In this document: piece after piece, positions 49,492-58,132 of the stretch
How positions within the stretch are numbered: position 1 is the first letter of the stretch
Layout: every line of letters begins with the position of its first letter
Origin: Escherichia coli
GTDB lineage: Bacteria; Pseudomonadota; Gammaproteobacteria; Enterobacterales; Enterobacteriaceae
Length of the DNA stretch: 64,000 bases
Strand: one strand, 5' to 3'
Assembly (NCBI RefSeq): GCF_044324875.1
Contig: NZ_CP172185.1
The notes under the pieces: model-generated
What the model was told of the DNA's origin: nothing
What the model saw: the letters and a program-made list of their open reading frames with translations, nothing else
Databases searched by the model: none
Position numbers and translations under genes: made by a program

Positions 49492-49637
49492 ATTACGGCT
49501 CCAGAGTTGTTATCACACTATCACCCACCCACATTATTGGGTTGATTAATAATTAGTTCAGTCAGGGCATAAACGCCAGTAACCGGAAATAAGACACTTT
49601 GTGATCTCTCTCGCACCCGATTATTTTTGGTAGAAAT

Positions 49638-50309
49638 ATGATGAAGTTACTTCACTTATTTATGGATGAAATCACTATGGATCCTTTGCACGCCGTTTAT
49701 CTGACCGTAGGACTGTTCGTGATTACTTTTTTTAATCCGGGAGCCAATCTCTTTGTGGTAGTACAAACCAGCCTGGCTTCCGGTCGACGCGCAGGAGTGC
49801 TGACCGGACTGGGCGTGGCGTTGGGCGATGCATTTTATTCCGGGTTGGGTTTGTTTGGTCTTGCAACGCTAATTACGCAGTGTGAGGAGATTTTTTCGCT
49901 TATCAGAATCGTTGGCGGCGCTTATCTCTTATGGTTTGCGTGGTGCAGCATGCGCCGCCAGTCAACACCGCAAATGAGCACACTACAACAACCGATTAGC
50001 GCCCCCTGGTATGTTTTTTTTCGACGTGGATTAATTACCGATCTCTCTAACCCGCAAACCGTTTTATTTTTTATCAGTATTTTCTCAGTAACATTAAATG
50101 CCGAAACACCAACATGGGCACGTTTAATGGCCTGGGCGGGGATTGTGCTCGCATCAGTTATCTGGCGCGTTTTTCTTAGTCAGGCGTTTTCTTTGCCCGC
50201 TGTGCGTCGTGCTTATGGGCGTATGCAACGCGTTGCCAGTCGGGTTATTGGTGCAATTATTGGTATATTCGCGCTACGCCTGATTTACGAAGGGGTGATG
50301 CAGCGGTGA
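49638..50309 (+). CDS. yahN: LysE/RhtB-family amino-acid exporter
   Basis: 223-aa polytopic membrane protein. Confidence 0.8.
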   Translation: MMKLLHLFMDEITMDPLHAVYLTVGLFVITFFNPGANLFVVVQTSLASGRRAGVLTGLGVALGDAFYSGLGLFGLATLITQCEEIFSLIRIVGGAYLLWFAWCSMRRQSTPQMSTLQQPISAPWYVFFRRGLITDLSNPQTVLFFISIFSVTLNAETPTWARLMAWAGIVLASVIWRVFLSQAFSLPAVRRAYGRMQRVASRVIGAIIGIFALRLIYEGVMQR

Positions 50310-50325
50310 GCAGATAATTTACTCT

Positions 50326-50571
50326 CTACGTAATCAACCTGATTTGCCAAATCCCGGTCATCGGCGATGATAGCCCCCGTAATGCGTGGTCCTTATTTCC
50401 GATAAGTTTACTTGAGTCTTTAGCTTCCCATTTCAGCCCACTCTCCCCTGTATGGGCTTTTTTCATTGCTCTGACCCGCCCTGAATAGCCAAACAATGGC
50501 AATGTTTCACTTTGCAGGGATGATAATAAGGGGAGCTGATTCAGAAGAGTTATGAAAAGTTGGACCGCCAT
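50326..50571 (-). CDS. yahM: Small hypothetical protein YahM
   Basis: 81-aa frame from the internal Met of ORF 50326..50601; assigned by position and length only. Confidence 0.45.
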   Translation of the reverse strand: MAVQLFITLLNQLPLLSSLQSETLPLFGYSGRVRAMKKAHTGESGLKWEAKDSSKLIGNKDHALRGLSSPMTGIWQIRLIT

Positions 50572-50983
50572 CGAGGCCTCGAACCCCGTACCATACAACA
50601 ATCCTGGTTGTCGTCTGCTCTTCCTGATGAGCTAATGGCGGTTTTTGATATGAGCCTTACAGCATATTTTCTGTCAGGCTTGAGTGCGATGCGTAAGGTA
50701 CAGAAAAGACCCCACACAAACATGATGGAATTATGATTTTTTTCATATGAATGTCAACCCACACATTCACAAAACACCTGCATGAGATCATTTTTTATAC
50801 ACCACATAGCTGCAAAACTACTACTGGTGATTTTTTAAGCGAAGCGTCGCCGATCACAACAAAATATCGGCGAAAAAGGCGGTGGAATGCCATTTGGCAT
50901 ACGGATATACAGATGAAATGATCACCTGCTTTGCGATTCACTCTCTGCTGGAATAACAACTTGCAGGTGGAACCCTTTCTGAA

Positions 50984-51799
50984 CTAAAGAGTGTAGCGGA
51001 TTTTAACGTGCTTATTTACAGGATAATATCTGTCACCTAATTCCTGCACTCTATTCGATATCCATTCGTTTAATCGCGCATCATCTCTGTATGTTTTTAC
51101 GTCCAGAACAGAGAGCAATAACATCACCAGCGATTCAGGAAAAACAGGGTAGATATTTTTTAAGTGTAATAATAATCCATGCGCAAGCGCCTGCTTAATT
51201 GGTGCGTCGCTCTCCGGAATAGACGACATTTCGCGAAGCCATTTTTCCACATGCATACACTCTTTCCCTTTAGGGAAAAGTCTCAGTAAAGGCATATGGT
51301 GTTCAAGAAGAATACATTTGCAATCTGTTCGCACTGAATCGATAAACTGCACTAATTTCTTAAGCCCGGTAAAGCGTCCAGCCTGCACATTTGCTTTAAT
51401 ATCAAGAAACGCATCATCCTGGTCATATACCCAAACTGTCCCTTTTTGATTTTCAAGTATGCGAAAAACAAACTTAACCGGGTAATCAGGGTAATCCATC
51501 CAGTCATAAAATCCCGGGAAATCATTAAACTGTACATTTATGGTAAGTGCGTTATCGTCTGACCACTCACAGTCTCGTACGGCAGCCATGAGATGAATGA
51601 GTTTGTCATCATCGACTAAATCATCACGACAATCATAAGGATAATCATAATATTGTTTAATCAAAACCTTGAATATATCGACACAGGAAACCAGGGAGCT
51701 TTTGATATCCTCCGGTAACTGATTGTTTTTAACCGTATTAAGTATGCTTTGTTGCGTATATGGCATCAAATTATTGTACGGAGCTTTTAATGATATCAT
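50984..51799 (-). CDS. yahL: Hypothetical protein YahL
   Basis: 271-aa ORF in AT-rich DNA; assigned by position and length; no recognisable domain. Confidence 0.65.
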   Translation of the reverse strand: MISLKAPYNNLMPYTQQSILNTVKNNQLPEDIKSSLVSCVDIFKVLIKQYYDYPYDCRDDLVDDDKLIHLMAAVRDCEWSDDNALTINVQFNDFPGFYDWMDYPDYPVKFVFRILENQKGTVWVYDQDDAFLDIKANVQAGRFTGLKKLVQFIDSVRTDCKCILLEHHMPLLRLFPKGKECMHVEKWLREMSSIPESDAPIKQALAHGLLLHLKNIYPVFPESLVMLLLSVLDVKTYRDDARLNEWISNRVQELGDRYYPVNKHVKIRYTL

Positions 51800-52041
51800 C
51801 GCGATCTCTCTTAAATAAAAATAAACGTCGCAGATAATAAAGCCCTGATTAAACCAGGCACTATCAGAAATCGCTCATAACTAACGTATGAAGTATTGTG
51901 TCCTGGAGGGAGTTAATTTAACAATTTGAATTTACGTTATAGGTTTTACCGCTACTTTGATATTATTTCGCTCTCCTTAACTAAAAAGTTAAGTGGAGAG
52001 CGAAGTTAATATGTTAAACCACAGGGTATTTATTAATTGTT

Positions 52042-53091
52042 TCAGTCTGTTAGTGTGCGATTATCGATAACAAAACGATATTTCACATCTCCTCGCAGCA
52101 TTCGCTCATAGGCTTCATTAATTTGATCGGCCCGAATCATCTCTATATCAGCCACGATGCCATGTTCGGCGCAAAAATCGAGCATCTCCTGTGTTTCTGG
52201 AATGCCGCCAATCATAGAGCCGGCTATCGCGCGGCGTTTCATGATCAGGTTGAAAACTTCCGGCGATTTATGCGGTGTCGCAGGCGCACCAACCAGCGTC
52301 ATGGTGCCATCGCGCTTCAGCAAGGTGGTAAAATCGTCGAGATTATGTGGCGCAGCTACTGTATTCAAAATGAAATCGAAACTCTTCAGATGAGCCGCCA
52401 TCTCATCGGCATTGCGTGAGTTAACAACTTCATCGGCCCCCAGGGCTTTTGCCGCTTCGCGTTTTGCCTCAGAAGTGGTAAATGCCACCACATGTGCCCC
52501 CATCGCGTGGGCCAGCTTAATCCCCATATGTCCCAGACCGCCGATGCCAACCACGCCCACTTTTTTACCCGGCCCGGCCTGCCAGTGACGTAGCGGCGAG
52601 TATGTGGTGATCCCTGCACACAATAAAGGAGCCACCGCCGCCAGCTGCTCTTGCGGGTGACGAATACGCAGAACATATCGCTCATGAACGACGATCTGTT
52701 GTGAGTAGCCGCCCAGCGTATGGCCCGGTTCGTCCGGCGTCGGCGAGTTATAGGTGCCGGTCATGTGATCACAGTAGTTTTCCAGCCCGTCTTCACACTC
52801 TTCGCAATGTTTACAACTGTCGACAATACAGCCGACACCGACCAGATCGCCCGTCGCATGTTTTTCTACCTGATCACCAACGGCTACCACACGCCCCACA
52901 ATTTCATGACCCGGCACGCAGGGGTAAACCGTCCCCGCCCACTCGGAACGGACCTGGTGGATATCGGAATGGCAGACGCCACAGTAAGCGATTTCAATTT
53001 TGACATCATGCGGTCCCGGTTCACGCCTGGTAATATCCATCGGTTCCAGCGGTTGCGTCGCGGAATAAGCACCAATAGCCTTGATATTCAT
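52042..53091 (-). CDS. yahK: NADPH-dependent Zn-type aldehyde reductase / alcohol dehydrogenase
   Basis: 349-aa frame from MNIKAIGAYSATQPLEP…; GHEIVG catalytic Zn motif, Cys cluster CKHCEECEDGLENYC, Rossmann GIGGLGH. Confidence 0.9.
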   Translation of the reverse strand: MNIKAIGAYSATQPLEPMDITRREPGPHDVKIEIAYCGVCHSDIHQVRSEWAGTVYPCVPGHEIVGRVVAVGDQVEKHATGDLVGVGCIVDSCKHCEECEDGLENYCDHMTGTYNSPTPDEPGHTLGGYSQQIVVHERYVLRIRHPQEQLAAVAPLLCAGITTYSPLRHWQAGPGKKVGVVGIGGLGHMGIKLAHAMGAHVVAFTTSEAKREAAKALGADEVVNSRNADEMAAHLKSFDFILNTVAAPHNLDDFTTLLKRDGTMTLVGAPATPHKSPEVFNLIMKRRAIAGSMIGGIPETQEMLDFCAEHGIVADIEMIRADQINEAYERMLRGDVKYRFVIDNRTLTD

Positions 53092-53362
53092 TGCATTCAC
53101 TCCTGTTCGAAGAGGTATCTGGATGATGTGAGGAACGTCTTTGCAGCAAAACTCGCTCATTCAATATAGCCAATGAATGGTTGCCCGTGATGGGCTCTGA
53201 GACGTTGATACCGGAGAGTTTAATGACCAATAGTGGTGTCGTTTTTCGTGGCAGATCACACTTTCTGGCACCAGCGATATCCCTTTTCCGCCTTAAAACC
53301 GGGGCGGTATCGTGACTGGCGAATTAGACTGCCGTGAAATTCAATTATTACGCACACGCCGT

Positions 53363-54010
53363 TTACCCCGCAAAAGAAACACGCAATAACTTTAACTGCC
53401 CGTTAATCATGCCAAATTCCAGTATAGTTGTGCCATCACAAACAGCCGGTGGAATTTGTTCATTAGCCTGCGAACCAATATTCAGCGTAATGCCATCGTC
53501 AGAAATATTCCCCGACATCGCCAGTTCACATATTCCCGTGACGTAGTGGCGCTCCCCTTTCTCTTCGTAATAGAAACGTCCATCATTGAGGGGATAATAT
53601 TTTCTTTTTTGCTCCGCTGGCGTCAGCGAATGACTGAGATAATCATCAATCCATTGGGTACCCGGATGTATCGTGAATTTTGTGACATTATGCAGACGCC
53701 GCATAATGGTTTCTGAATGGCGATCAAATAGTGCTTCTGTGAAGGGTTCAGATTCAGGCAACTCAATCTCAGCGAGAAAGCCGAAATAGGTATCGTAGGG
53801 GAATTTTAAGAAGGTTTTTAGTTTCGTGGCATTCTTTGCACTCAGCGCTTGCTGAAACTTTTGCAATTGCGTTAAGGCATCTTTTTTCTGCTCCGGCGTG
53901 ACCAGGGGCTGTATGCGCACCGCCTCGCATTCGTGTTGTGAATTTCCAGCAGGGCAAGTTGCCAGGACGGCCTGACTCAGAAACAACAGCGATAACCAAA
54001 GAAATTTCAC
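53363..54010 (-). CDS. Hypothetical secreted/periplasmic protein (no name assigned)
   Basis: 215-aa ORF with signal peptide MKFLWLSLLFLSQAVLA and four Cys in the mature part; sits between yahK and yahJ. Confidence 0.5.
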   Translation of the reverse strand: MKFLWLSLLFLSQAVLATCPAGNSQHECEAVRIQPLVTPEQKKDALTQLQKFQQALSAKNATKLKTFLKFPYDTYFGFLAEIELPESEPFTEALFDRHSETIMRRLHNVTKFTIHPGTQWIDDYLSHSLTPAEQKRKYYPLNDGRFYYEEKGERHYVTGICELAMSGNISDDGITLNIGSQANEQIPPAVCDGTTILEFGMINGQLKLLRVSFAG

Positions 54011-54129
54011 GGCGTCTATCCATCCCTGGATAAAAAAGATAATCCGCAGTGTACGTCATGGGCAAAACGCAGAGGATATCGGGTTTTAAAATCGGAATAG
54101 TGCCTGCCCGGATATCCTCGCTGATAACG

Positions 54130-55508
54130 TTACACCACACTCCCCCACACCAGTTGTCCTTTATGGAACGTTGCCGTTCTCGGCGAGATACGCGCCACCG
54201 CCTCGGCGGAACAGGAGGCGTCCACCAGCACAAAACTGGCGTCATCCTGCGCTTTGGGCCACACGCGCTCGCCTTTTTCATTCAGCGGCAATACATCGCC
54301 AGTGGCTAAAAACAGCGAACGGGACAAATTCTGTTCGTTAGGGCGAATATAGAGCTGCGCGTACAGATTGGCTTTTTCCAGCATGTCGCCCAGGCCATAA
54401 GGTGACCAGTGGTCAATAACGCTGTCAGTTCCGGTCATGACTTTTACGCCTTTGTCGTGCAACTGTTTGAGCGGCATATGCAGCGTGCCAATCGGCACCG
54501 TCGAGGCGATAGAAATTTGCTGCGCCGCCATCCGGTGCGCCAGTTCATCTACCTGTTGTTCGTTGAGCGTTGCCAACGCAAAGGCGTGACTGATGGTCAG
54601 CTTGCCCTTCAGCTGTGGCGTTTTCTCTACCGTTTCAACCATATAATTGATGGCTGCCACACCTGCCGGAGTGGTTTCGTGCAGGTGAATATCGACGCCT
54701 TTGTCGTAGTCCAGCGCAATCTGAAACATGGTGTCGAGGGATTTTTCCATCGCGCCATCAACACTGGTTGGGTCCAGCCCGCCGACGTAATGCGCGCCCG
54801 CCTGCATCGCTTCACGCATTAAGGGTTCTGATTTCGACAGCAGCAAACCGTGCTGCGGGAAGGCGACGATTTCACACTCGAAGCCCGCCTGACGTCGCGC
54901 CAGCACCGCCTGCAAATTTTGCAGATTTTTCAGGCCGGAAACCGGTTCGATATTGCAGTGGCTGCGGGCAATGGTGGTGCCTTTCGACTGCAATAAATCG
55001 ATCAGTTTTTCCGCTCGTTCCTGAGTGTACGGTTGCAGCTCCGGCAGCATTTTCTGCTCGAGTTTGATCATGTCCTGGATGGTGGTCCTGCCGGGCGATT
55101 GAGCGAGCGCCACGGCCCGCCGTAAAAGGTTTTGTCGAGATGAATATGCATGTCGCGGGTGGTGGGCAGCATCAGCTTACCGCCAGCGTCATAGTGCGGC
55201 AGCGTGGCGTCCGGATGCTGCTTGTTCTCGCGCAGGGCAACAATTTTGCCGTTCTGAATCTCTACGGTCTGGTGCGCCGTGCGGGTCTGTACCGCCACAC
55301 CGTTTTCGTAGTCAAAACCGGTTTCCAGCAGCACGTTGTCGAGATAGTAGTGCGGGTCAGTGATTTTCATGGTGTTATTCGCGTCGCAGTTTAGGGTGCC
55401 AGAGACTGCCGCATGGGCGAGCGGCACAGAGGTACCAAACAGCGCGGCGGCGGTGACCATCTTACAGCTCTGGCTCAGAAACTCACGGCGGCTATTGTTT
55501 TTTTTCAT
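54130..55508 (-). pseudogene. yahJ: Tat-signal amidohydrolase/deaminase YahJ, split by an apparent frameshift
   Basis: ORFs 55068..55508 (146 aa, Tat motif SRREFL) and 54130..55113 (327 aa) overlap by 46 bp in different frames and together cover one amidohydrolase-length gene. Confidence 0.7.
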
Positions 55509-55517
55509 CTTACGTCC

Positions 55518-56468
55518 TTACGTTTTAATAATATGTGTGCCTGTTTCACCGCGCAGCGCCGCAGGCAGGCATTCCGGCGTGGTGATAATCACTTCTTTGC
55601 CGCCCTGCTCCAGGAACGTCAGGCTGGCGATGATTTTTGGCAACATGCTGCCAGGCGGGAAATGCCCTTCCTGCATATAGCGGGTCATGGTGGCAATATC
55701 CACCCGATCCAGCGCCTGCTGCTGCGGCTTGCCAAAGTGAATACACACTTTTTCGACGCCGGTGGTGATCACCAGAATGTCGGCGTGAATTTCACGGGCC
55801 AATAGCGCGGTAGAGAGATCTTTGTCGATAACCGCGTCCACGCTTTGGTAATCCCCCGCTTCACTGCACACCACCGGAATTCCACCGCCGCCCGCGCCAA
55901 TCACCACAAAACCTTGTTGGATCAGCGCCTTAATGGCAGGTGCTTCGACAATACGTTTCGGTTCCGGCGAGGCGACCACGCGGCGATAGCCCCGTCCGGC
56001 ATCTTCAACAAAACGCCAGTCAGGGTTTGCCTTTTGTAATTCGTCACGCTGGCTTTCACTGAAGAATGCGCCGATGGGCTTGGTGGGATGAGCAAATCCC
56101 GGATCGTTTTTATCCACTTCCACCTGAGTCACCACGGTGACGGCTTTTTTCTCGCCGTGACGCGCCAGTCGGTTATTCAGCGCCTGTTGGATCAGGTAGC
56201 CGATGCCACCTTGCGTATCCGCCACACAGTTCGCCAGCGGCGTTAAGGGCAGCCCTTCGCGCTCGTGGGCAATCTCCGCACGGCGTAAATCCAGCCCGAC
56301 CTGCGGCCCGTTGCCGTGGGTCAGCACAATGTCGTAATCGGAAGCCAGCATTTCCAGCACCGTATCGGCGACGGCCTTCACCGCCTCCGCCTGATGCTCA
56401 ATCGACTGGCTGGCGTTATCTTTGATAATGCTGTTGCCACCAATGGCAACGACCACAAGTTCTTTCAT
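55518..56468 (-). CDS. yahI: Carbamate kinase-like protein
   Basis: 316 aa; amino-acid kinase fold (MKELVVVAIGGNSI…). Confidence 0.9.
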   Translation of the reverse strand: MKELVVVAIGGNSIIKDNASQSIEHQAEAVKAVADTVLEMLASDYDIVLTHGNGPQVGLDLRRAEIAHEREGLPLTPLANCVADTQGGIGYLIQQALNNRLARHGEKKAVTVVTQVEVDKNDPGFAHPTKPIGAFFSESQRDELQKANPDWRFVEDAGRGYRRVVASPEPKRIVEAPAIKALIQQGFVVIGAGGGGIPVVCSEAGDYQSVDAVIDKDLSTALLAREIHADILVITTGVEKVCIHFGKPQQQALDRVDIATMTRYMQEGHFPPGSMLPKIIASLTFLEQGGKEVIITTPECLPAALRGETGTHIIKT

Positions 56469-56494
56469 GTTGTTATGTCCGCTACAGAGGGTGA

Positions 56495-56705
56495 TGGGGT
56501 TATGACCAACGCCAGACTGCCTGATGCGCTACGCTTATCAGGCCTAGAATTCTCGTGCCATTCGTAGGCCGGATAAGGCGTTCACGCCGCATCCGGCAAT
56601 GGTGACAAATGCCTGATGCGCTACGCTTATCAGGCCTACAGATTCTCGCGCCACTCGTAGGCCGGATAAGGCGTTCACGCCGCATCCGGCAGAGACAACG
56701 CGCAC
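56495..56705. repeat. REP/BIME elements between yahI and yahG
   Basis: Two copies of CCTGATGCGCTACGCTTATCAGGCCTA…CGTAGGCCGGATAAGGCGTTCACGCCGCATCCGGCA. Confidence 0.85.
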
Positions 56706-56713
56706 TTTGCAGG

Positions 56714-58132
56714 TCAGACGCCGTAACGTTCGCACCAGCCAAGAATGGCTTTCTCGAAGCAGGCGAATGGTGGATGCACAATGCCCGCGCCAATCATGCC
56801 GACGCCCGCATCTTTATGGGCGATGGCGGTGTTGATCACCGGCAGAATGCCGCTACTGCCCACGCGGGTTATGTCGATTGCCGACGGCACGCCCATAAAA
56901 CCGAGCAGCGGAATGGTGACGTTGGGATTTTCGCCGAGAGTGATTTCGCGCATCTGGCGGGAGAAATCGATGGCCTCTTCCACCGTACCGCCCACCAGCG
57001 CGACGATTGCAGGCGCGGTCGCCATAGCAAATCCACCAATGCCGTAGGTTTCGGTGATGGCGCTGTCGCCAATATCCAACCCAGAATCTTCCGGCTTATA
57101 ACCGGCAAACATCGGGCCGATGACCTGCTGCGCCGGACCGGTAAACCATTGCCCCGGTAATCCGCTGACCCGCAGGCCGAACTCGACGCCGTTACGCGCC
57201 ATGGTGGTCACCACAGTGCTGTATTCGATGCCGTGCGCCGCATCCATCGCCGCTTTACACATCGCCATCCACGTCGGGCCGGAGAAGTAGTCACTGCTGG
57301 CGACAAACTCAAACACTTCGCGCTGTTGCTCGACGGAGTAGCCCGCCTGAATAATCCCCGGCGTCAGCGCCTGAATCAGCAGCGTCGTCCCGGCGTTATT
57401 GCGGTTATGGCACTCATCGCCCATATGCAGCGCCTGCGCCAGCATTAAGCGCAGATCGATCTCGCCGATAATTTTCATCGCATCGCGCAGCATTGGCCCC
57501 TGCACATCACGCATCCAGTTGAGTCGGTCGATCACGCTCTGGTCGTTAGCGCCCATACGCAAAATCTTTGCCATCTGCTCGCTCATATTGGTGTAAGCGA
57601 TGTTGCCGTAGGTTTTGTTTTTCACGATGTGCATAAACATCGAGGCCGAGGTAACACCCGCCATCGATCCCACGCAGTCATGTTCGTGGCACGGCGAGAA
57701 GGTGATCTCCCCGGAGGCCGCCAGTTCAGCCGCCTCATCGAGATCTTTCGCCAGCCCTTCGAACACCAGCGCTCCGGTGACCGCGCCTTTCATCGCGCCA
57801 CACATTTTTTCCCAGGTGATCGGCGGTCCGGCGTGAAGAATGGTTTTCGGCGTCATACCCGGCACCACGTTAATCGCCTGATCAAAACCAATCAGCACCG
57901 GATGCGACTGGATAATGCGCTCCAAAGCCTGCTGGTTAGCGGCGGCGATTTTGTCTGCCAGCGGCGAATCGGCAATGTTATCCAGCGCCTGCACCACCTG
58001 CATATTGCCCTGCCCCGGCGGCGTCCAGTCGAGTTGAGTCACTTCTACATGCTGCTTTTTCAGGTCATCGCTAAACATGGCGATGCCGACGTTAATAACG
58101 TTCAACGGTTGGCTAAACAGTGACTGGCTCAT
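56714..58132 (-). CDS. yahG: DUF1116 family protein YahG
   Basis: 472-aa ORF immediately downstream of yahF. Confidence 0.8.
   Translation of the reverse strand: MSQSLFSQPLNVINVGIAMFSDDLKKQHVEVTQLDWTPPGQGNMQVVQALDNIADSPLADKIAAANQQALERIIQSHPVLIGFDQAINVVPGMTPKTILHAGPPITWEKMCGAMKGAVTGALVFEGLAKDLDEAAELAASGEITFSPCHEHDCVGSMAGVTSASMFMHIVKNKTYGNIAYTNMSEQMAKILRMGANDQSVIDRLNWMRDVQGPMLRDAMKIIGEIDLRLMLAQALHMGDECHNRNNAGTTLLIQALTPGIIQAGYSVEQQREVFEFVASSDYFSGPTWMAMCKAAMDAAHGIEYSTVVTTMARNGVEFGLRVSGLPGQWFTGPAQQVIGPMFAGYKPEDSGLDIGDSAITETYGIGGFAMATAPAIVALVGGTVEEAIDFSRQMREITLGENPNVTIPLLGFMGVPSAIDITRVGSSGILPVINTAIAHKDAGVGMIGAGIVHPPFACFEKAILGWCERYGV

What the first reader, a model, noticed from the sequence alone, without database searches (positions are those of the whole stretch)
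53363..54010. Unnamed 215-aa signal-peptide ORF between yahK and yahJ
A clean ORF with signal peptide MKFLWLSLLFLSQAVLA and four cysteines in the mature region occupies the gap between yahK and yahJ. I do not recognise it as a named gene. My recollection is that the K-12 yahJ-yahK gap is shorter and holds no annotated gene, so this may be a strain-variable insertion. It sits next to the frameshifted yahJ.
Basis: partly seen in the sequence, partly recalled or inferred. Interest (0 to 1): 0.4.

Follow-up and report, generated by a model that had tools for sequence, protein, structure and literature searches.

The report
Exported NTF2-like orphan protein gene
The ORF is a real but uncharacterised accessory gene, carried by about 1% of complete E. 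coli genomes, that encodes an exported protein with a remote NTF2-like fold; it is a tidy annotation result, not a surprise.

Summary
Window 53363-54010 (minus strand, GTG start) is a 215-aa ORF with a Sec-type signal peptide and Cys19, 28, 161 and 191.

RefSeq already annotates it as hypothetical protein WP_000670937.1, for example in EAEC strain 042. It occurs in 59 of 5,426 complete E. coli genomes, always between yahK and yahJ.

It is a replacement, not a simple insertion. 960 bp (53175-54134) stand where K-12 has 300 unrelated bp, and a third allele with an ASCH-domain gene also exists.

The ORF is coding:
- Exhaustive HMMER finds relatives (best 43% identity, E 4e-36) in Citrobacter, Lelliottia, Hafnia, Serratia, Siccibacter and Leptotrichiaceae-type contigs.
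- Syntenic Citrobacter orthologues have dN/dS of about 0.2.

Enterobacterial relatives carry an N-terminal DUF4431 module that the E. coli protein has lost.

Most likely it is a periplasmic, disulfide-braced, non-enzymatic binding protein. Ligand and role are unknown, and an immunity or inhibitor role is a speculative minority reading. Interest is modest.

The parts
53363..54010 (-). CDS of the 215-aa protein (GTG start at 54010-54008, TAA stop at 53365-53363). Identical to RefSeq WP_000670937.1.
   Evidence: ORF list. Same coordinates annotated by PGAP in Ecol_316 and 042. The N-terminus aligns from residue 1 with the Citrobacter-type homologue P0017, which supports the GTG start.
53960..54010 (-). 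Signal peptide, residues 1-17 (MKFLWLSLLFLSQAVLA). Predicted SPase I cleavage is after V-L-A. There is no lipobox, because Thr sits at position -1 before Cys19.
   Evidence: Read directly from the sequence. A conserved counterpart, MKYLWLSALLFSHAVLA, is present in P0017. No signal-peptide predictor was available.
53906..53959 (-). Residues 18-35 (TCPAGNSQHECEAVRIQP), a short Cys19/Cys28 linker. It stands where relatives carry the roughly 100-aa DUF4431 module.
   Evidence: Residues 1-34 align with P0017 1-34 and residues 36-215 with P0017 132-317. P0017 residues 78-126 match PF14485. pLDDT here is only 52-54.
53366..53905 (-). Conserved C-terminal domain, residues 36-215. It has helices followed by a curved beta-sheet (remote NTF2-like fold) and the Cys161-Cys191 pair.
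53175..54134 (.). Strain-variable 960-bp segment that replaces an unrelated 300-bp segment of K-12. GC is about 46% against about 54-56% in the flanks.
   Evidence: Homology with K-12 and LR-60 stops at 53174 and resumes at 54135. The segment is present in 59 of 5,426 genomes at 99.0% identity or more. Composition.
54072..54119 (-). 12-bp inverted repeat with a 24-nt loop, just downstream of the yahJ stop and upstream of the ORF. It may be a weak terminator or attenuator between yahJ and the ORF.
   Evidence: the repeat finder pair I5. The consensus terminator scan did not call it. Its function is inferred only.
53331..53341 (.). Left arm of a perfect 11-nt inverted repeat (GCCGTGAAATT / AATTTCACGGC) that brackets the ORF. 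The right arm at 54003-54013 includes the GTG start.
   Evidence: the repeat finder pair I2. My own estimate of the chance expectation in 1.2 kb is about 0.2, so it may be coincidence.

Best explanation
This is a genuine, horizontally acquired accessory gene.

Architecture. Its product enters the periplasm through the Sec pathway, with a signal peptide of residues 1-17 cleaved after VLA, and it is not a lipoprotein. The mature protein has two parts. The first is an 18-residue Cys-x8-Cys stub. The second is a roughly 180-residue domain from an uncharacterised family, in which N-terminal helices pack into a curved antiparallel beta-sheet. That is a remote, enlarged NTF2-like cone, braced by a Cys161-Cys191 disulfide.

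Origin. Enterobacterial relatives place a DUF4431 module between the signal peptide and this domain. The E. coli protein is the same gene type with that module deleted. This leaves the signal-peptide-plus-domain architecture that also occurs naturally in Leptotrichiaceae-type bacteria.

Mechanism. I infer that it works as a non-catalytic binding module in the cell envelope. It would hold a small hydrophobic or envelope-derived ligand, or a partner protein, in or on the cone.

Location. The gene sits in a recombination hot spot between yahK and yahJ and is functionally unrelated to those genes.

Shown: the ORF, coding status, family membership, architecture and distribution. Inferred from sequence features: export and the disulfide. 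Inferred from the model: the fold. Not shown: the binding role.
For: Coding and family membership:
- Only the annotated frame scores positive for codon usage.
- There are 19 HMMER hits, the best non-E. coli one at 43% identity and E 3.8e-36, all covering residues 36-215.
- 21 of the 24 columns conserved at 80% or more carry the consensus residue in the E. coli protein.
- Syntenic Citrobacter orthologues have dN/dS 0.17-0.24, so they are under purifying selection.

Export:
- The sequence has the n, h and c regions of a signal peptide with V-L-A|T, and the same signal occurs in P0017.
- All stand-alone relatives start with MKK plus a hydrophobic stretch.

Disulfide:
- In the 27-sequence alignment, Cys161 and Cys191 are both present in 17 sequences, both absent in 9 (replaced by W plus G or M), and the second is shifted in 1.

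Fold:
- AF2 with the family alignment gives pLDDT 89.6 and pTM 0.80.
- The Pgp2 NTF2 domain is reported to bind peptidoglycan through a pocket (PMC8038945, title and abstract listed).

Domain loss:
- Residues 1-34 align with P0017 1-34 and residues 36-215 with P0017 132-317.
- PF14485 is present in P0017, P0018 and P0019 and absent here.

Acquisition:
- The gene is in 59 of 5,426 genomes, always at one chromosomal site.
- GC is 45.7% against 54-56% in the neighbours.
- No species-representative genome of any other Escherichia species matched in the genome-contig scan.
- No cluster lies between 43% and 100% identity among 1.84 billion representatives.
Against: - There is no expression or export evidence. 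The start is GTG, the Shine-Dalgarno match is weak (my reading), and no sigma-70-like promoter was found upstream on the minus strand.
- No Pfam NTF2-clan model matches.
- Loss of the DUF4431 module and the 1% prevalence are also compatible with a decaying gene.
- Variation among E. coli copies is too small to test selection. The most divergent copy has 5 differences, 2 synonymous and 3 non-synonymous.
- Nothing identifies a ligand or partner.
Confidence: 0.6

Rival explanations
1. Orphan periplasmic immunity or inhibitor protein. The domain would neutralise an envelope-acting toxin or hydrolase delivered by competitors. The E. coli gene would be an orphan immunity gene kept by a minority lineage. 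This is a more specific form of the binding-module reading.
For: - The protein is exported, small and disulfide-braced.
- It evolves fast. dN/dS is about 10 times that of flanking actP and lrgB in Citrobacter.
- Its distribution is patchy and it sits in variable hot spots.
- Tandem arrays of 3-6 paralogues occur in Leptotrichiaceae-type contigs.
- One of those arrays lies about 2.8 kb from a gene with a DUF4280 domain. I recall DUF4280 as PAAR-like, which is not checked here.
- The Lelliottia copy lies about 4.8 kb from a T6SS ImpA_N/VasL gene.
Against: - No toxin gene is adjacent in E. coli, where the neighbours are yahK and yahJ, or in Citrobacter, Serratia or Siccibacter, where the neighbours are lrgAB, actP-acs and gltP.
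- The Sebaldella array has no DUF4280 neighbour.
- The genes between the T6SS gene and the Lelliottia copy are unrelated (MsyB, PerC).
- PADLOC gives no hit.
- No full-text paper in the library combined the terms NTF2-like, immunity protein, periplasmic and type VI secretion.
Confidence: 0.15
2. Decaying relic. The ORF would be the in-frame remnant of a DUF4431-family gene that has lost its N-terminal module and no longer has a function. On this view it persists only because it is young and linked to the yahL-yahK haplotype.
For: - The module is missing relative to all enterobacterial relatives.
- The start is GTG, the SD is weak and no promoter was predicted.
- The codon score of 0.072 is below the 0.236 +/- 0.08 of long ORFs in the window.
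- Only about 1% of genomes carry it.
- Shorter gene calls (132, 133 and 185 aa) exist in some assemblies.
- Kosakonia carries a clearly broken copy.
- The neighbouring yahJ is itself frameshifted in this strain.
Against: - The reading frame is intact and identical in Ecol_316, 042, WP8 and AST262, which have different yahJ haplotypes.
- 21 of 24 family-conserved residues and both domain cysteines are retained.
- AF2 folds the domain confidently.
- Stand-alone signal-peptide-plus-domain proteins are a natural architecture of the family.
Confidence: 0.2
3. Periplasmic enzyme of the SnoaL, ketosteroid-isomerase or limonene-epoxide-hydrolase type. The NTF2-like cone would be a catalytic pocket acting on a small molecule.
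Against: - Sequence identity to the enzymes is 4-15% and only about half of the domain aligns.
- No enzyme family HMM matches.
- The genomic contexts have no shared metabolic partner.
- Fast evolution and tandem paralogue arrays are unusual for housekeeping enzymes.
Confidence: 0.05
4. Chance ORF, with no gene at all.
For: Atypical GC, weak translation signals and no Pfam hit.
Against: Homologues at E 1e-36 to 1e-13 in six or more genera. Purifying selection in orthologues. Only the annotated frame has a positive codon score. Confident AF2 model.
Confidence: 0.01

Closest known systems
Uncharacterised enterobacterial 'DUF4431 domain-containing' exported proteins. Examples: Citrobacter-type P0017 (317 aa), Hafnia paralvei WP_008813597.1 (473 aa), Lelliottia wanjuensis MDK9354799.1 (659 aa).
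   Same: The signal peptide is homologous (53% identity over residues 1-34 with P0017). The C-terminal roughly 180-aa domain is homologous (33-43% identity, E 4e-36 to 3e-24), including the Cys pair and the QKRKYYP and YYY motifs.
   Different: The E. coli protein lacks the DUF4431 (PF14485) module and any other N-terminal module such as DUF4459 or YARHG. It sits between yahK and yahJ rather than next to lrgAB/actP-acs. None of these relatives has a known function.
Stand-alone roughly 200-aa family members in Leptotrichiaceae-type bacteria, for example a Sebaldella sp. S0638 hypothetical protein (P0096).
   Same: They share the two-part architecture of signal peptide plus domain and a similar length, 196-222 aa.
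   Different: Identity is only 24-30%. Many replace the Cys pair by W plus G. They occur as tandem arrays of 3-6 paralogues, whereas E. coli has a single copy.
NTF2-like superfamily (SnoaL-like, ketosteroid-isomerase-like), including the periplasmic NTF2 accessory domains of the LD-carboxypeptidases Pgp2 (6xj7), Csd6 (4xzz) and Bd1075 (7o21).
   Different: There is no detectable sequence similarity. The domain is about 50% larger than a canonical NTF2 domain. Foldseek is not significant. There is no attached catalytic domain.
TIGR04454 (Lepto_4Cys family lipoprotein)
   Same: It has an N-terminal signal sequence and four cysteines. The weak hit (E 0.038) covers residues 3-59.
   Different: The score of 14.5 is far below the 35-bit cutoff. 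There is no lipobox. The match is confined to the signal peptide and first helix.

Membership tests
Uncharacterised exported-domain family defined here (alignments A2 and A3; no Pfam model) | Significant full-length match of the roughly 180-aa domain, with the conserved K42, Q48, F52, Q53, A55, P71, L106, RKYY (136-139), YY (147-148), N183, P187, F199 and LKL (206-208). | tested here: met
   phmmer E 3.8e-36 to 8e-4 over residues 36-215. 21 of 24 conserved columns carry the consensus residue. Profile score 215 bits.
DUF4431 (PF14485) domain-containing proteins | A match to PF14485 above the 24-bit gathering score. | tested here: not met
   No Pfam hit at E <= 1 for the E. coli protein. Relatives P0017, P0018 and P0019 score 35.7-44.8 bits. 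The alignment shows that the module is deleted.
NTF2-like superfamily | An alpha+beta cone, with N-terminal helices packed against a curved antiparallel beta-sheet of five or more strands. | tested here: met
NTF2-like superfamily | Sequence-level membership of a curated NTF2-clan family (SnoaL, DUF4440, and so on). | tested here: not met
   No such Pfam family at E <= 1 for the protein or for any of the 27 family members. The PDB profile search has no hit below E 0.8. Foldseek gives E >= 0.11.
Sec-exported (SPase I) periplasmic proteins | An N-terminal positively charged n-region, a hydrophobic h-region, and small residues at positions -3 and -1. | tested here: met
   M-K, then FLWLSLLFLSQAVLA, with V at -3 and A at -1 (read). 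It is conserved in P0017 and P0028. No predictor such as SignalP was available, and export itself cannot be tested here.
Bacterial lipoproteins (SPase II), including TIGR04454 | A lipobox [LVI][ASTVI][GAS]C (consensus recalled from memory), and for TIGR04454 a score of at least 35 bits. | tested here: not met
P0017 has Trp at -1. TIGR04454 scores 14.5 bits.
Toxin-immunity (T6SS, CDI, polymorphic toxin) immunity proteins | Encoded directly next to a cognate toxin or effector gene. | tested here: not met
   The E. coli neighbours are yahK and yahJ. The Citrobacter, Serratia and Siccibacter neighbours are lrgAB, actP-acs, gltP and wza-wzc. T6SS or DUF4280 genes are near, but not adjacent, in only two contexts. 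An orphan immunity gene would fail this test, so the function is not excluded.
Known anti-phage defence proteins (PADLOC-DB) | A match to a PADLOC model. | tested here: not met
   No hits at E <= 1 for the protein or for three relatives.

The most novel reading that the evidence does not exclude
The roughly 180-aa domain may found a new family of fast-evolving, exported NTF2-like proteins that act in inter-bacterial or host conflict. They would work as periplasmic inhibitors or immunity factors against envelope-targeting toxins or hydrolases. On this reading the Leptotrichiaceae tandem arrays are immunity islands, and the E. coli copy is a streamlined orphan immunity gene retained by EAEC 042 and the other carrier strains.
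Probability: 0.15. Interest if true: 0.55.

Novelty: new member of a known kind. Interest (0 to 1): 0.3.

Why it matters
The practical value is annotation. A 'hypothetical protein' of EAEC 042 and 58 other complete E. coli genomes can now be described as an exported, disulfide-braced, NTF2-like domain protein. It belongs to a small family that has no Pfam model, and a seed alignment for such a model now exists.

The work also shows that the yahK-yahJ junction is a multi-allelic replacement hot spot. That is useful for pangenome and typing work.

If the conflict-related reading were true, it would add a new periplasmic immunity or inhibitor fold family. The paralogue arrays in oral and gut Leptotrichiaceae would give a ready test set. 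Nothing here bears on a long-standing open question.

Tried and rejected
- Pfam, NCBIfam, PHROGs and PADLOC scans of the protein gave nothing. The only results were a sub-threshold TIGR04454 hit and noise-level PHROG hits.
- The word-indexed search of 5.8 billion proteins found only the protein's own cluster. The exhaustive HMMER search was needed to find relatives.
- Single-sequence AF2 failed (pLDDT 39.3). The run with the alignment succeeded.
- The PDB sequence profile search had no hit below E 0.8. Foldseek against PDB and BFVD was not significant. afdb50 was unavailable.
- Weak PepSY hits in 7 of 27 family members (best E 0.0033) were rejected. They do not include the E. coli protein, and I consider them too weak to be evidence.
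- The K-12 75-bp pseudogene is not a remnant of this ORF. Its translation, LALWGTLLLCFIQARGMLGLDRVV, is unrelated.
- I looked in the 271-bp ORF-yahK spacer for a remnant of the 126-aa membrane-protein gene that follows the Citrobacter-type homologue. There is none.
- I looked for a conserved operon partner across contexts. There is none.
- tblastn against plasmids and phages gave no match.
- Rfam and RNA folding of the flanks showed nothing.
- Literature searches for DUF4431, WP_000670937 and EC042_035x/036x returned no papers.
The 5-sequence alignment worked, but it used only two peptide patterns, so its taxonomic census is a lower bound.

Full report
**1. Observation**

It runs from 53363 to 54010 on the minus strand, has a GTG start and encodes 215 aa. 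The product begins MKFLWLSLLFLSQAVLA-TCPAGN. Cysteines are at residues 19, 28, 161 and 191.

A codon log-odds score was trained on 21 long ORFs of the window. It is positive only in the annotated frame: +0.072, against -0.23 to -0.50 for the other five frames. It is lower than for the long (>=350 aa) ORFs of the window used for training (0.236 +/- 0.08) and close to that of neighbouring yahL (0.013). GC is 45.7%, against 53.6% for yahK and 55.5% for the 3' part of yahJ. So the ORF is coding-like but compositionally atypical.

**2. Status in E. coli**

The 1.3 kb around the ORF is 100% identical to strain Ecol_316. There PGAP annotates the same 648-nt CDS as hypothetical protein WP_000670937.1. 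The prototype EAEC strain 042 has it too, as EC042_RS01915.

- The 960-bp segment occurs in 59 of 5,426 complete genomes.
- It is present once per genome, always on the chromosome.
- Identity is at least 99.9% in 58 genomes and 99.0% in one, the guinea-fowl isolate GF4-3.

Against K-12 DH1 and strain LR-60, homology stops at 53174 and resumes at 54135. K-12 has 300 unrelated bp in place of these 960 bp. The only annotation there is a 75-bp pseudogene fragment, and its translation is unrelated to this ORF. The gaps are 1038 bp here and 376 bp in K-12.

The K-12-type segment is complete in 2,759 genomes. About 2,280 further genomes match only part of it. Four of the five such records listed carry an ASCH-domain gene next to yahJ. 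In WCHEC040047 that gene is followed by sugar ABC-transporter genes. The site is therefore a multi-allelic replacement hot spot.

Among carriers, the block from about 49.5 kb (upstream of yahL) through yahK to the ORF is almost invariant in four of the five compared. The exception is GF4-3. The yahJ side differs by 2-4%. This points to mosaic recombination around the segment.

**3. Relatives**

- The word-indexed search of 5.8 billion proteins returned only the protein's own cluster. It has 79 members, and all named ones are E. coli.
- Exhaustive HMMER against 1.84 billion representatives found 19 hits.
- Nothing lies between 100% and 43% identity, so no donor is known.

The best relative is P0017 (317 aa, E 3.8e-36). 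It and its orthologues lie between lrgAB and actP-acs in Citrobacter species and Kosakonia. The Kosakonia copy is broken.

Other relatives are in Lelliottia (659 aa), Hafnia paralvei (473 aa), Pseudocitrobacter, Serratia fonticola and Siccibacter turicensis. In Serratia and Siccibacter the gene is again beside the acs locus. In all of these the homologous region is the C-terminal roughly 180 aa.

Pfam finds DUF4431 (PF14485) in the N-terminal part of P0017, P0018 and P0019. P0018 has DUF4459 and YARHG as well. No Pfam model covers the C-terminal domain.

Stand-alone proteins of about 200 aa, made of a signal peptide plus the domain, occur in Leptotrichiaceae-type contigs. One is named Sebaldella. 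They form tandem arrays of 3-6 paralogues.

There are no matches in plasmids or phages.

**4. Architecture of the E. coli protein**

Residues 1-34 align with P0017 1-34 at 53% identity. That stretch covers the signal peptide plus 'CPA'. Residues 36-215 align with P0017 132-317 at 39% identity. The E. coli protein is therefore the same gene type without the DUF4431 module. An 18-residue Cys19/Cys28 stub is left in its place.

The conservation starting at residue 1 also validates the GTG start.

The signal peptide has a typical SPase I site, V-L-A|T. Thr at -1 here, and Trp at -1 in P0017, exclude a lipobox (sequence reading). The sub-threshold TIGR04454 'Lepto_4Cys lipoprotein' hit scores 14.5 bits against a 35-bit cutoff. 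It covers only residues 3-59 and is rejected.

**5. The domain**

In the 27-sequence alignment, Cys161 and Cys191 are both present in 17 sequences and both absent in 9, where W plus G or M replace them. The second Cys is shifted in 1 sequence. This is the signature of a structural disulfide, which is consistent with a periplasmic location.

Of the 24 columns conserved at 80% or more, the E. coli protein carries the consensus residue at 21.

AF2 without an alignment failed (pLDDT 39.3). With the family alignment it gave pLDDT 89.6 and pTM 0.80. Per-block pLDDT is 89-98 for residues 31-215. The model has helices at 39-111 followed by a multi-stranded antiparallel sheet.

- Essentially all of the top 50 or so are NTF2-like proteins, with about 90-105 residues aligned.
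- They include the periplasmic NTF2 accessory domains of Pgp2, Csd6 and Bd1075.

Foldseek found nothing significant, though its top hits are also KSI or scytalone-dehydratase type. I conclude that the domain has an enlarged, remote NTF2-like fold. No relationship is detectable at the sequence level.

**6. Selection and tempo**

E. coli copies are too similar to test. The most divergent copy has 5 differences, 2 synonymous and 3 non-synonymous.

Among syntenic Citrobacter orthologues, dN/dS is 0.17-0.24. That is purifying selection, so these are real functional genes. The value is roughly ten times that of the flanking actP (0.014-0.022) and lrgB (0.007-0.05). The family is fast-evolving.

**7. 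Expression signals**

- The Shine-Dalgarno match is weak (GGA/GGAT about 8-9 nt upstream of GTG; my reading).
- No sigma-70-like promoter was found upstream on the minus strand, and no canonical terminator was called.
- A 12-bp hairpin lies just after the yahJ stop.
- The downstream spacer has no unusual RNA structure (z = 0.40) and no Rfam match.

Whether the gene is transcribed alone or by read-through from yahJ is unknown.

**8. Function**

Shown:
- It is a real gene.
- Its family and architecture are defined.
- It is accessory and non-mobile; no plasmid or phage copy exists.

Inferred from sequence and model:
- Sec export.
- A disulfide-braced NTF2-like domain.

Inferred by analogy only: a non-catalytic binding role in the envelope. 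NTF2-like cones typically bind small hydrophobic ligands or partners. The Pgp2 NTF2 domain binds peptidoglycan through a pocket (PMC8038945, from its title and abstract as listed).

A more specific reading is an orphan immunity or inhibitor protein. Fast evolution, patchy distribution, hot-spot location and paralogue arrays all hint at it. The absence of adjacent toxin genes in every enterobacterial context argues against it.

A relic reading also remains possible: a truncated gene on its way out. The intact and identical ORF in four carriers with differing yahJ haplotypes, and the fully conserved domain, disfavour it.

**9. Verdict**

The gene is already in the databases as a hypothetical protein. 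It is a new member of a known kind, an exported NTF2-like protein, from a small family without a Pfam model. Interest is modest at 0.3.

Noticed in passing
window 55086-55087 (yahJ, 54130-55508, minus strand): yahJ carries a 1-nt deletion. A 'c' is missing from caggCacc, which is not a homopolymer, relative to Ecol_316, 042 and K-12. This gives ...RPAGPPSRT* and splits the gene into ORFs of 146 and 327 aa. No complete E. coli genome is more than 99.0% identical over the 801 bp (54700-55500) around the deletion that were searched, so the frameshift appears private to this strain or assembly.
   Followed up: yes
window 53175-54134, compared with L003:3701-4000 and L009:2501-3239: The yahK-yahJ junction is a multi-allelic hot spot. 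There is a K-12-type 300-bp spacer with a 75-bp pseudogene remnant. There is an allele with an ASCH-domain gene, followed by sugar or AI-2-like ABC-transporter genes. The third allele is the 960-bp segment studied here. The K-12 spacer shares its two ends with the ASCH allele, so it may be a deletion derivative of that allele.
   Followed up: partly
window 53331-53341 and 54003-54013: A perfect 11-nt inverted repeat (GCCGTGAAATT / AATTTCACGGC) brackets the ORF. One arm contains the GTG start, and the other lies 22 nt past the stop. It could be chance. I estimate about 0.2 such pairs expected in 1.2 kb.
   Followed up: no
window ~49500-54130 versus 54130-57000: The haplotype is mosaic. From about 49.5 kb (upstream of yahL) through yahK to the ORF, the block is almost identical to Ecol_316, 042, WP8 and AST262. 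The yahJ, yahI and yahG side differs from them by 2-4%, with different breakpoints in different strains.
   Followed up: partly
window 56518-56691: There are repeated units of about 82 bp between yahI and yahG. They match the K-12 region that is annotated there as the small ORF yahH. I guess, without checking, that these are REP- or BIME-like repeats.
   Followed up: no
L015:2359-6266 and L014:3642-5600 (Leptotrichiaceae-type contigs): Six (L015) and three (L014) tandem paralogues of the same exported domain lie between a PhoH/PIN ATPase gene and a small HTH gene. In L015 a 1411-aa protein containing DUF4280 follows about 2.8 kb downstream.
   Followed up: partly
L025:5658-6153 (Kosakonia sp. 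S29): The orthologue at the syntenic lrgAB/actP site is broken into pieces of 114 and 51 aa. The family is apparently being lost in this lineage.
   Followed up: no
L013:4127-4534 (Lelliottia): A separate 135-aa ORF with a weak DUF4431 match lies just upstream of the 659-aa family member. The DUF4431 module therefore also exists as a stand-alone gene.
   Followed up: no
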